Assembly: GCA_020054235.1 (NCBI GenBank)
Contig: JAGVLQ010000018.1
Span: 22,421-86,420 of the forward strand
Source: Candidatus Babeliales bacterium
GTDB taxonomy: Bacteria; Babelota; Babeliae; Babelales; JACPOV01
Direction of reading: 5' to 3'
DNA length: 64,000 nt
The notes beneath the pieces were generated by a model, which was given only the letters and a program-made list of their open reading frames with translations, did no database searches and was not told the DNA's origin. Made by a program: the position numbers and the translations under genes. This document shows positions 5,850-6,323 of this stretch, piece by piece. Position 1 is the first letter of the stretch. Each line of letters opens with the position of its first letter.

Positions 5850-5888
5850 ATTATTTCATATAGAAATTAAAAGTCGCCGGGGCCTTCA

Positions 5889-5916
5889 TTGACAAAATTT
5901 GAAAATTCTATAACGT
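5889..5916 (+). promoter_or_regulatory. promoter-like block, copy 2 of 3
   Basis: TTGACA at 5889-5894 and TATAAC at 5909-5914, with the same 14-nt spacing and the AATTTGAAAATT core as copies 1 and 3. Confidence 0.3.
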
Positions 5917-6000
5917 TATAAGGAGCTGCTAGCCTTGCCTTTGCCAGCTCAGCACAGGGGGAGCATGGTTACGAAGTCACATTAATGGTGGTTGATTCGT

Positions 6001-6042
6001 ATGAATTCTTTTTGCGCATTCTCATTAATCGCTCTTAGATGA
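6001..6042 (+). CDS. conserved leader mini-ORF, copy 2 (MNSFCAFSLIALR)
   Basis: GGTGG lies 9 nt upstream. The first 12 codons are near-identical to copy 1. It sits 50 nt upstream of the orphan lasso precursor. Confidence 0.3.
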   Translation: MNSFCAFSLIALR

Positions 6043-6092
6043 AGTTATTGTATTCAATTTTATTTTTTAATCTTTAATTATAGGAGTTTCAA

Positions 6093-6197
6093 ATGAAACT
6101 AATAATTATACTTGGTAACGCAAGTGAATTAACTCTTGGTCAAGGACCCAAAAGTGCAGAAGTTGATGCACAAGGATACCGTCCACTTTCTTGGTAA
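6093..6197 (+). CDS. lasso-peptide precursor, orphan copy (A0)
   Basis: AGGAG at 6082-6086. The 34 codons read MKLIIILGNASELTL|GQGPKSAEVDAQGYRPLSW. The leader is homologous to the four precursors at 10316-10790, with Thr at -2, Gly1 and Glu8. Confidence 0.65.
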   Translation: MKLIIILGNASELTLGQGPKSAEVDAQGYRPLSW

Positions 6198-6260
6198 CCT
6201 AGGCTAAGATTGTTGTAAACCAAATTGCAGCTAACCTGCAATGCGTGGTAAAACAAATCG

Positions 6261-6323
6261 TATAGAAGGATATGGGCGCCCTTAGAAAAAGTAAGGAAGC
6301 TCGTATCCTTCTATATTTTTTTT
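6261..6323 (+). terminator. rho-independent terminator after the orphan precursor
   Basis: A 12-bp stem, TATAGAAGGATA (6261-6272) with TATCCTTCTATA (6304-6315), is followed by T8. Confidence 0.5.

What the first reader, a model, noticed from the sequence alone, without database searches (positions are those of the whole stretch)
5850..6323. Fifth, orphan lasso precursor between the two MutS-peptidase paralogues, with its own promoter/leader copy and terminator
A 34-codon gene (6093-6197, AGGAG RBS) encodes MKLIIILGNASELTL|GQGPKSAEVDAQGYRPLSW. Its leader is homologous to A1-A4 and it has Thr -2, Gly1 and Glu8. It lies 4 kb from the B/C genes and is a stand-alone unit. Upstream it has a copy of the island promoter block (5889-5914) and the leader mini-ORF (6001-6042). 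Downstream it has a strong terminator (6261-6323). It would be missed by ORF callers with a 60-aa cutoff.
Basis: partly seen in the sequence, partly recalled or inferred. Interest (0 to 1): 0.65.

Follow-up and report, generated by a model that had tools for sequence, protein, structure and literature searches.

The report
Fifth lasso-peptide precursor gene, separately placed
A 34-codon gene between two large MutS-like genes is a genuine, selectively maintained fifth precursor of the neighbouring lasso-peptide cluster, with a copied promoter block in front and a strong terminator behind; it is an ordinary member of a known peptide class in a slightly unusual layout.

Summary
ORF 6093-6197, with an AGGAG ribosome-binding site 6 nt upstream, encodes MKLIIILGNASELTL|GQGPKSAEVDAQGYRPLSW. 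It has Thr-2, Gly1 and Glu8, as A1-A4 do.

Evidence that it is a real precursor:
- A profile built only from 28 precursors of other metagenomic loci scores A0 at 41 bits (E 1e-11). The best non-family frame in the window has E 0.12.
- Against A3, the leader differs at 15 of 48 bases but at only 2 of 16 residues (0 of 100,000 random-mutation trials do as well).
- A biofilter-metagenome contig carries an A0-like gene whose core keeps S6, E8, D10, A11, G13, R15 and P16 across 50% base divergence.

The upstream block is one of three copies in the window; none is expected by chance. It keeps TTGACA, but its -10 is weaker (TAACGT). The hairpin plus T8 at 6260-6323 folds at -32.6 kcal/mol (z -6.75).

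Two corrections:
- "Orphan" holds only relative to B/C. In eight related loci, precursors sit directly after MutS-like genes, so A0 after MutS1 is the family's normal position. The block copy replaced MutS1's tail.
- The mini-ORF shows no peptide-level constraint.

Transcription and processing are untested. It is a new member of a known kind, of moderate interest.

The parts
5845..6070 (+). Third copy of the promoter plus 5'-leader block shared with the two MutS-like genes. It begins on MutS1's stop codon (5847-5849) and ends at the position equivalent to 16 nt before the MutS2 ATG.
   Evidence: Repeat families D3, D5, D8, D13 and D18, the alignment and blastn (5860-6037 matches 2317-2500, and 5968-6070 matches 6558-6664). 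Motifs from the block occur 3 times in the window against 0 expected.
5889..5916 (+). Putative sigma-70-type promoter: -35 TTGACA (5889-5894), a 16-nt spacer, then -10 TAACGT (5911-5916). The -10 keeps T1, A2 and T6 only.
   Evidence: Read from the sequence and aligned with TTGACA-16-TAAATT (2346-2373) and TTGACA-16-TAAAAT (6472-6499), both of which the consensus scan lists. The A0 copy is below that scan's threshold. Activity is not tested.
5968..6041 (+). Conserved leader element of about 75 nt, including the 13-codon mini-ORF at 6001-6042. It is 97% identical to the MutS1 copy over 30 nt.
   Evidence: There is no stable fold (z about +1) and no covariation. The mini-ORF copies differ almost only non-synonymously. 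No Rfam family reaches its threshold.
6063..6092 (+). Remnant resembling the last codons of a MutS-like gene plus the A1-type ribosome-binding region. It contains AGGAG at 6082-6086.
   Evidence: blastn aligns 6063-6139 with 10285-10362 at 72% identity, E 5.6e-5. The global alignment shows homology on both sides of the inserted block.
6093..6197 (+). A0 precursor gene. The leader MKLIIILGNASELTL is 6093-6137, the core GQGPKSAEVDAQGYRPLSW is 6138-6194, and the stop is 6195-6197.
6260..6323 (+). Intrinsic terminator: a 23-bp interrupted stem (6260-6316) followed by T8 (6316-6323). A smaller hairpin lies at 6224-6242.
   Evidence: Inverted repeat I2. The fold is -32.6 kcal/mol, z -6.75.
2541..5849 (+). 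MutS-like paralogue 1 (MutS_V domain plus a C-terminal peptidase-like domain), directly upstream of the A0 unit. It lacks the roughly 35-residue Lys/Glu-rich tail of paralogue 2.
   Evidence: Pfam MutS_V, 40 bits. C-termini compared.
6680..10300 (+). MutS-like paralogue 2, followed 15 nt later by A1.
10316..10790 (+). Tandem precursor genes A1-A4.
10833..11588 (+). B: leader peptidase with an N-terminal RRE-like region fused to it. It is presumed to act on A0 in trans.
   Evidence: Transglut_core3 at 62 bits. NCBIfam lasso_biosyn_B2 at 66.6 bits against a cut-off of 33. C188, H220 and D232/D233 are invariant in 9 homologues.
11579..13318 (+). C: Asn-synthetase-like macrolactam cyclase.
   Evidence: Asn_synthase at 89 bits. 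The SGGVDSS motif is in the translation. Homologues at 35-65% identity lie beside B genes and precursors.

Best explanation
A0 is a functional fifth precursor of the lasso-peptide system encoded 4-7 kb downstream.

**Proposed mechanism (all steps inferred)**
- The 34-residue peptide is translated from a good AGGAG ribosome-binding site.
- Its 15-residue leader carries every residue that is invariant or nearly invariant in the family, so the RRE-like N-terminal part of B binds it in trans.
- B's Cys-His-Asp peptidase cuts after Leu-1, next to Thr-2.
- C activates the Glu8 side chain and joins it to the Gly1 amine.
- The product is an 8-residue ring threaded by an 11-residue tail, held by Tyr14/Arg15 and/or Trp19. 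The expected product is the core minus H2O, 2026.99 Da.

**Transcription (inferred)**
- The mRNA most likely starts at the copied MutS-type promoter (TTGACA-16-TAACGT). Read-through from MutS1 may add to it, because no terminator lies between MutS1 and A0.
- The mRNA ends at the strong hairpin plus T8 at 6260-6323, which also insulates the MutS2 promoter.

**Origin (inferred)**
- The unit arose from an ancestral [MutS-like gene][precursor] pair like MutS2-A1.
- A copy of the promoter and leader block replaced the last 78 nt or so of MutS1.
- This put A0 under the same control module as the two MutS-like genes.
For: **Family membership**
- An HMM built from 28 precursors of other loci hits exactly five frames in the window. 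A0 scores 41.0 bits (E 1.2e-11) over the full model. The next frame has E 0.12.
- In the alignment of 37 precursors from 11 loci, Thr-2, Gly1 and Glu8 are invariant. M1, I4, G8, A10 and L13 are nearly invariant. A0 has all of them, and it has the common G-x-R-P tail motif. Compare L049's GGYRPRHFW with A0's QGYRPLSW.
- A0 has a sub-threshold match to the NCBIfam albusnodin-family lasso peptide model: 22.4 bits against a cut-off of 30.

**Selection**
- Over leader codons 1-16, A0 against A3 shows 15 base differences and 2 residue differences (pS 0.83, pN 0.15). In random-mutation trials, 0 of 100,000 do as well against A3, 58 against A2 and 88 against A1.
- A 151-nt contig in run X1 matches 6088-6154 at 91% identity. 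It then continues in frame as S-M-E-A-D-A-N-G-G-R-P, where A0 reads S-A-E-V-D-A-Q-G-Y-R-P. Fifteen of the 30 bases differ, and five codons changed only synonymously.

**Enzymes**
- B and C are intact.

**Position**
- Precursors follow MutS-like genes directly in L003/L050, L051, L052, L001, L054, L056 and L057.

**Transcription signals**
- The block is present in three copies.
- The terminator is strong.
- No terminator lies between MutS1 and A0.

**Origin**
- MutS1-MutS2 homology runs to 5839/10206.
- The A0 upstream stretch 6063-6092 matches 10285-10315.
- MutS1's stop codon lies inside the block copy.
Against: - There are no transcript, peptide or mass data. No RNA run holds this stretch.
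- The -10 of the A0 promoter copy is degenerate (3 of 6) and falls below the consensus scan's threshold.
- No full-length orthologue with genomic context could be found. The A0-core pattern had 0 hits in the metagenome contigs, and the peptide is a singleton cluster. Conservation of the core therefore rests on 30 visible bases of a single depth-2 contig.
- The leader comparisons are between paralogues and are not independent of one another. They show past selection, not present function.
- The 30-nt 'MutS-tail remnant' is AT-rich, and its similarity is only suggestive.
Confidence: 0.75

Rival explanations
1. A0 is a real precursor but not an independent unit. The copied promoter block is inactive, and A0 is simply the second gene of the MutS1 operon. 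It is expressed by read-through and ended by the shared terminator.
For: - No terminator-like site lies between the MutS1 stop (5849) and A0.
- The -10 hexamer of the A0 copy is TAACGT, against TAAATT and TAAAAT in the other two copies.
- In related loci, precursors follow MutS-like genes with short gaps and no obvious promoter of their own.
Against: - The copy keeps a perfect TTGACA, the 16-nt spacing, and T1, A2 and T6 of the -10.
- The downstream 75-nt leader is the best-conserved part of the block, 97% identical over 30 nt to the MutS1 copy. That argues the block is still under constraint.
Confidence: 0.25
2. A0 is a decaying relic of a duplication. Its ORF is still open, but it is no longer expressed or no longer accepted by B/C.
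For: - It sits apart from the main array.
- It is the most divergent of the five at the DNA level, 61% identical to A2 over 79 nt.
- Its promoter copy is the most diverged of the three, 64-73% identical.
- There are no expression data.
Against: - The ORF is intact and has the best Shine-Dalgarno of the five genes.
- Synonymous differences in the leader are near saturation while the residues are kept.
- All family-invariant positions are present.
- Its profile score equals that of A1.
- A relative in another metagenome keeps an A0-like core in frame.
Confidence: 0.1
3. A0 is not cyclised. It acts as a linear peptide, or as a leader-bearing ligand, together with the adjacent MutS-like protein. 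It is independent of B/C.
For: - The [MutS-like gene then precursor] pair is conserved more strictly than the [precursor then B] pair.
- In L052 three precursors follow a MutS-like gene, and no B/C follows on the 2.4-kb contig.
Against: - Gly1 and Glu8 are invariant in all 37 family members. That is explained by ring closure and has no obvious role in a linear peptide.
- Every locus long enough to judge has B and C within a few kb.
- L052 is a short contig.
Confidence: 0.05

Closest known systems
Multi-precursor proteobacterial lasso clusters with a fused B protein (caulosegnins I-III, astexins); from general knowledge of the field, not re-read here
   Same: Several precursor genes with near-identical leaders and diverse cores are served by one B/C pair. 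They share Thr at -2, a Gly1 to Glu/Asp8-9 isopeptide ring, and a B protein that carries both the leader-binding and the peptidase parts.
   Different: In those clusters the precursors lie in tandem directly upstream of B/C. Here one of the five is separated from the rest by a 3.6-kb MutS-like gene. It has a copied promoter block and its own terminator. The leader is only 15 residues, and no ABC exporter or isopeptidase is present in the cluster.
Microcin J25 system, mcjABCD (general knowledge)
   Same: The ring is 8 residues, Gly1-Glu8, with Thr-2. The precursor gene is transcribed from its own promoter, separately from the maturation genes, and is processed in trans.
   Different: mcjA lies immediately beside mcjBCD and is the only precursor. 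That cluster has the McjD exporter. A0's leader and core are unrelated in sequence to McjA's.
Remote precursors of promiscuous RiPP enzymes, e.g. prochlorosins and ProcM (general knowledge)
   Same: Conserved leaders with hypervariable cores are encoded in several places and modified by one enzyme set. The same leader/core contrast is seen between A0 and the X1 relative: 91% base identity in the leader against 50% in the core.
   Different: The RiPP class is different (lanthipeptides). Those precursors are scattered over the genome, whereas A0 is only 4 kb away.
Putative lasso clusters of amoeba symbionts (Amoebophilus asiaticus Aasi_0899-0902; PMC8831229)
   Same: A lasso-type cluster in a host-dependent, ankyrin-rich bacterium. 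The paper reports up-regulation late in infection and suggests a role in host interaction.
   Different: The phylum is different, no sequence relationship was tested here, and no MutS-like partner or split precursor set is reported there.
NCBIfam NF033525, albusnodin-family lasso peptide
   Same: A0 residues 3-23 align to model positions 17-37 with E 1.2e-4.
   Different: The score of 22.4 bits is below the curated cut-off of 30, and A3 does not hit the model at all. A0 is not a member. The match is only a distant resemblance of the leader-core junction.

Membership tests
Lasso peptide precursor (class II type) | Thr at the penultimate leader position (-2) | tested here: met
   T14 of A0. It is invariant in the 5 window genes and in all 37 family members.
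Lasso peptide precursor (class II type) | Small residue (Gly, Ala, Ser or Cys) at core position 1 | tested here: met
   Gly16 is core Gly1. It is invariant.
Lasso peptide precursor (class II type) | Asp or Glu at core position 7-9 to close the ring | tested here: met
   Glu23 is core Glu8. The column is invariant in the family alignment.
Lasso peptide precursor (class II type) | Tail long enough to thread, with bulky plug residues | tested here: met
   The 11-residue tail VDAQGYRPLSW has Tyr14, Arg15 and Trp19 (sequence). Which residues act as plugs is inferred.
Lasso peptide precursor (class II type) | Cognate B (RRE plus leader peptidase) and C (cyclase) encoded nearby and intact | tested here: met
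   B matches lasso_biosyn_B2 at 66.6 bits against a cut-off of 33, and C188, H220 and D232/D233 are invariant. C matches Asn_synthase at 89 bits and has the SGGVDSS motif. C's scores against the curated lasso-cyclase models are below their cut-offs. The RRE fold of B's N-terminus was inferred from conserved motifs only and was not modelled.
Lasso peptide precursor (class II type) | Match to a curated lasso-precursor model | tested here: inconclusive
   NF033525 scores 22.4 bits against a cut-off of 30, E 1.2e-4.
Lasso peptide precursor (class II type) | Product is a threaded macrolactam | not testable with these tools
   This needs expression, MS/MS, and protease, heat or NMR tests.
The 'MKxIxxLGxAxxLTLG-leader' precursor family of Dependentiae-type lasso clusters (defined here) | Significant score against a profile built without the window's own genes | tested here: met
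   41.0 bits, E 1.2e-11, over model positions 1-32. A profile of the whole family finds 93 representatives among 1.84 billion proteins.
The 'MKxIxxLGxAxxLTLG-leader' precursor family of Dependentiae-type lasso clusters (defined here) | Position directly downstream of a MutS-like ATPase gene | tested here: met
   A0 starts 243 nt after the MutS1 stop. The same order is seen in L003/L050, L051, L052, L001, L054, L056 and L057.
Independent transcription unit | Own promoter | tested here: inconclusive
   The copy of a block that precedes two large genes has a perfect -35 and a 3-of-6 -10. No transcript data exist.
Independent transcription unit | Own intrinsic terminator | tested here: met
   -32.6 kcal/mol, z -6.75, followed by T8.

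The most novel reading that the evidence does not exclude
The conserved unit in this family is not [precursor-B-C] but [secreted MutS-like ATPase then precursor(s)]. On this reading each MutS-like paralogue works with its own peptide set: MutS1 with A0, and MutS2 with A1-A4. The ATPase would act as a handling, export, immunity or delivery partner that stands in for the missing ABC exporter.

Placing one shared promoter and leader module in front of MutS1, A0 and MutS2 would make them a small regulon. That regulon would deliver lasso peptides as host-directed factors of a protist-dwelling Dependentiae bacterium.
Probability: 0.25. Interest if true: 0.7.

Novelty: new member of a known kind. Interest (0 to 1): 0.4.

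Why it matters
- **Product count:** the finding raises this cluster's predicted products from four to five and gives a concrete mass to look for, 2026.99 Da.
- **Mining rule:** in this little-studied, probably Dependentiae-type family, precursors should be sought after MutS-like genes rather than only in front of B/C. That changes how such clusters are mined.
- **Evolution and regulation:** the block copy that replaced MutS1's tail shows how a precursor can gain its own control module. It marks three genes as probably co-regulated, which is a handle for working out what the MutS-like partners do.

Tried and rejected
The rest of the genome and its sister genomes could not be searched for more copies of A0 or of the promoter block.
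- The search for homologous proteins refuses queries under 40 residues.

**Searches that found little or nothing**
- A genome-contig scan with the C protein found nothing.
- A degenerate leader pattern in genome contigs gave 43 hits. All but one (L036, a Dependentiae MAG) were chance hits in GC-rich genomes.
- An A0-core-specific pattern found nothing in the metagenome contigs.
- The sequencing-run searches found only one biofilter DNA run, with a 151-nt relative contig. They found no RNA run and no run holding the organism itself. Base differences inside that contig's leader part are not reported by the tool.

**RNA and structure checks**
- Rfam found only tRNAs at gathering thresholds. The hits in 5840-6700 are all below threshold and fall on the terminator.
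- I rejected the idea that the 75-nt leader is a structured RNA. Fold z-scores are +0.2 to +1.1, and the consensus fold is -4 kcal/mol with no compensatory pairs.
- I rejected the idea that the mini-ORF is conserved as a peptide.
- The promoter-block motifs are absent from all 53 fetched loci, so the module is local to this genome.
- PDB sequence searches with B and C gave nothing useful.

**Literature**
- Searches found no report linking lasso peptides with Dependentiae or with MutS-like genes.

Full report
**What is in the sequence**

The ORF at 6093-6197 (+) encodes MKLIIILGNASELTLGQGPKSAEVDAQGYRPLSW. Its ATG is the only start in the stop-to-stop frame 6084-6197. AGGAG at 6082-6086 lies 6 nt upstream and is the best Shine-Dalgarno of the five precursor genes.

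Four tandem ORFs at 10316-10790 encode related peptides. They are followed by three genes:
- B (10833-11588): Transglut_core3, and NCBIfam lasso_biosyn_B2 at 66.6 bits against a cut-off of 33.
- C (11579-13318): Asn_synthase, with an SGGVDSS PP-loop.
- An ankyrin-repeat protein.

In nine B homologues, C188, H220 and D232/D233 are invariant, so the peptidase triad is intact.

The five peptides share M1, K2, I5, I6, G8, A10, L13, T14, L15, G16 and E23. That corresponds to Thr-2, Gly1 and Glu8.

**Is A0 more than chance, and is it a decayed copy?**

I collected 28 precursors from other loci. These came from relatives of C and from a degenerate leader pattern run against genome and metagenome contigs. 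I built an HMM from them without using the window.
- Against all 1,798 stop-to-stop frames of the window, the HMM hits exactly five.
- A0 scores 41.0 bits (E 1.2e-11) over the whole model, about the same as A1 at 40.5 bits.
- The next frame has E 0.12.

In the 37-member alignment, Thr-2, Gly1 and Glu8 are invariant and A0 has all the nearly invariant leader residues. Its tail QGYRPLSW matches the family's G-x-R-P motif, as in L049's GGYRPRHFW.

At the codon level, the A0 leader differs from A3 at 15 of 48 bases but at only 2 of 16 residues (pS 0.83, pN 0.15). None of 100,000 random-mutation trials keeps the peptide that well. The counts are 58 and 88 per 100,000 against A2 and A1, and 4,285 against A4. 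This shows long-term selection on the peptide. The comparisons are between paralogues and are not independent of one another.

One public run, a biofilter metagenome (X1), holds a 151-nt contig of depth 2. It matches 6088-6154 at 91% identity and then diverges at the base level, with 15 of the 30 visible bases different. It stays in frame as S-M-E-A-D-A-N-G-G-R-P, where A0 reads S-A-E-V-D-A-Q-G-Y-R-P. Five codons changed only synonymously. This is thin evidence, but it is independent and it shows that an A0-type core is maintained elsewhere.

A0 also has a sub-threshold hit to the albusnodin-family lasso peptide model. The exact peptide is already a called gene in the public protein collection, as a singleton.

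**Flanking signals**

The upstream block is present three times: 2306-2504 before MutS1, 5849-6041 (extending to about 6070) before A0, and 6432-6631 before MutS2. Two motifs from it occur exactly three times in the window against none expected. They are absent from all 53 related loci.

The three copies read as follows:

| Copy | -35 | Spacer | -10 |
|---|---|---|---|
| MutS1 | TTGACA | 16 nt | TAAATT |
| MutS2 | TTGACA | 16 nt | TAAAAT |
| A0 | TTGACA (5889-5894) | 16 nt | TAACGT (5911-5916) |

The A0 copy therefore keeps only T1, A2 and T6 of the -10 and falls below the scan's threshold.

The best-conserved part is a leader of about 75 nt (5968-6041). It has no stable fold (z +0.2 to +1.1), no covariation and no Rfam match. 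The mini-ORF inside it differs between copies almost only by non-synonymous changes. I read it as a cis-acting nucleic-acid element of unknown kind, not as a conserved peptide.

Downstream, 6260-6316 forms a 23-bp interrupted stem followed by T8. It folds at -32.6 kcal/mol, z -6.75. No terminator-like site lies between the MutS1 stop and A0.

**Is it an orphan?**

Only relative to B/C. In related loci the constant neighbour of the precursors is a MutS-like gene:

| Locus | Arrangement |
|---|---|
| L003/L050 | Three MutS-like genes, seven precursors, B, C |
| L051 | Four MutS-like genes, six precursors, B |
| L052 | One MutS-like gene, three precursors, then an opposite-strand gene |
| L001, L054, L056 | MutS-like gene(s), then precursor(s), converging on B-C from the other strand. 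In L054 this is the only precursor found. |
| L057 | B, C, a MutS-like gene, then a precursor |

One Dependentiae MAG locus (L036/L053) has an ABC exporter and no MutS-like gene. A0, 243 nt after MutS1, is therefore in the family's usual place.

**Origin of the unit**

- MutS1 and MutS2 DNA are homologous up to 5839/10206.
- MutS2 then continues for 94 nt, encoding a Lys/Glu-rich tail, and A1 starts 15 nt after its stop codon.
- In the MutS1-A0 region, the 78 nt equivalent to 10207-10284 are replaced by the 223-nt block copy. That copy supplies MutS1's present stop codon (5847-5849).
- Homology to the MutS2-A1 junction resumes at 6063-6092, matching 10285-10315.

This fits two histories: replacement of MutS1's tail by a block copy, or deletion of a third MutS-like ORF between T-runs. 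I cannot tell them apart, and the 30-nt remnant is AT-rich, so this part is only suggestive.

**Mechanism proposed (inferred)**

- A0 is transcribed from the copied promoter, by read-through from MutS1, or both.
- Transcription stops at the strong hairpin.
- A0 is translated and bound through its leader by B in trans.
- It is cut after Leu-1 and cyclised by C between Gly1 and Glu8.
- The result is a 19-residue lasso of 2026.99 Da.

Nothing here shows expression or processing. No RNA data exist for this organism.

**Context and novelty**

- The closest named relatives of C are from Candidatus Babeliales and Dependentiae MAGs, and L036 is a Dependentiae MAG. The window is chromosomal, with MutS, UvrA and GlyRS. 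Its lineage is inferred, not shown.
- A profile of the family finds 93 representatives among 1.84 billion proteins.
- Lasso clusters are reported in amoeba symbionts (PMC8831229). I found no paper linking lasso peptides with Dependentiae or with MutS-like genes.
- A separately transcribed precursor, and multiple precursors for one enzyme pair, are both known for lasso peptides from general knowledge (microcin J25, the caulosegnins). A0 is therefore a new member of a known kind in an unusual layout.

**Earlier notes of this scan**

The notes pointed to a five-precursor cluster and to MutS-like partners. I re-derived both independently. My codon comparison disagrees with the note that the mini-ORF is conserved at the peptide level.

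Noticed in passing
Proteins P0127, P0129, P0136, P0137, P0144, P0146, P0148, P0150 and others: Thirty-four of the 93 library hits to the precursor profile are single ORFs of 64-115 residues that contain two leader-plus-core cassettes in one frame, or three in P0127. Each cassette has the ...ELGxAxxLTLG leader and Glu8. They may be multi-cassette lasso precursors, which I have not seen described.
   Followed up: no
window 5839-5849 versus 10206-10300: MutS1 lacks the roughly 35-residue Lys/Glu-rich C-terminal tail of MutS2, and its stop codon lies inside the copied promoter block. The block copy truncated the gene.
   Followed up: partly
window 2260-2281, 5848-5869, 6385-6406: A near-palindrome, ATTTCAyATwGAAAT, lies 20-90 nt upstream of each TTGACA in all three block copies. 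It is a candidate operator for a dimeric regulator.
   Followed up: no
L036/L053 versus the window, L001, L003, L051, L052, L054-L057: In the flanks seen, loci with MutS-like genes have no ABC exporter. The one locus with a McjD-like ABC exporter between the precursors and B has no MutS-like gene. The two may be alternatives.
   Followed up: partly
L054 7860-11600 (-): A 1,246-residue protein fuses ankyrin repeats to a MutS_V domain, directly upstream of the locus's only precursor. In the window the same family is fused to a peptidase-like domain instead. The MutS-like core seems to accept varied add-on domains.
   Followed up: no
L003 8388-9948: The cyclase gene of this otherwise complete locus (three MutS-like genes, seven precursors, B) is split into two overlapping frames, 8388-8933 and 8755-9948. 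This is either a frameshift or an assembly error.
   Followed up: no
window 10316-10540: The exact A1 and A2 peptides are not in the public protein collection, while A0, A3 and A4 are. Gene callers missed two of the tandem precursors, not the separated one.
   Followed up: yes
window 37537-37594 (-): Next to two full tRNA genes there is a weak, truncated tRNA match: 33.8 bits over model positions 9-63.
   Followed up: no
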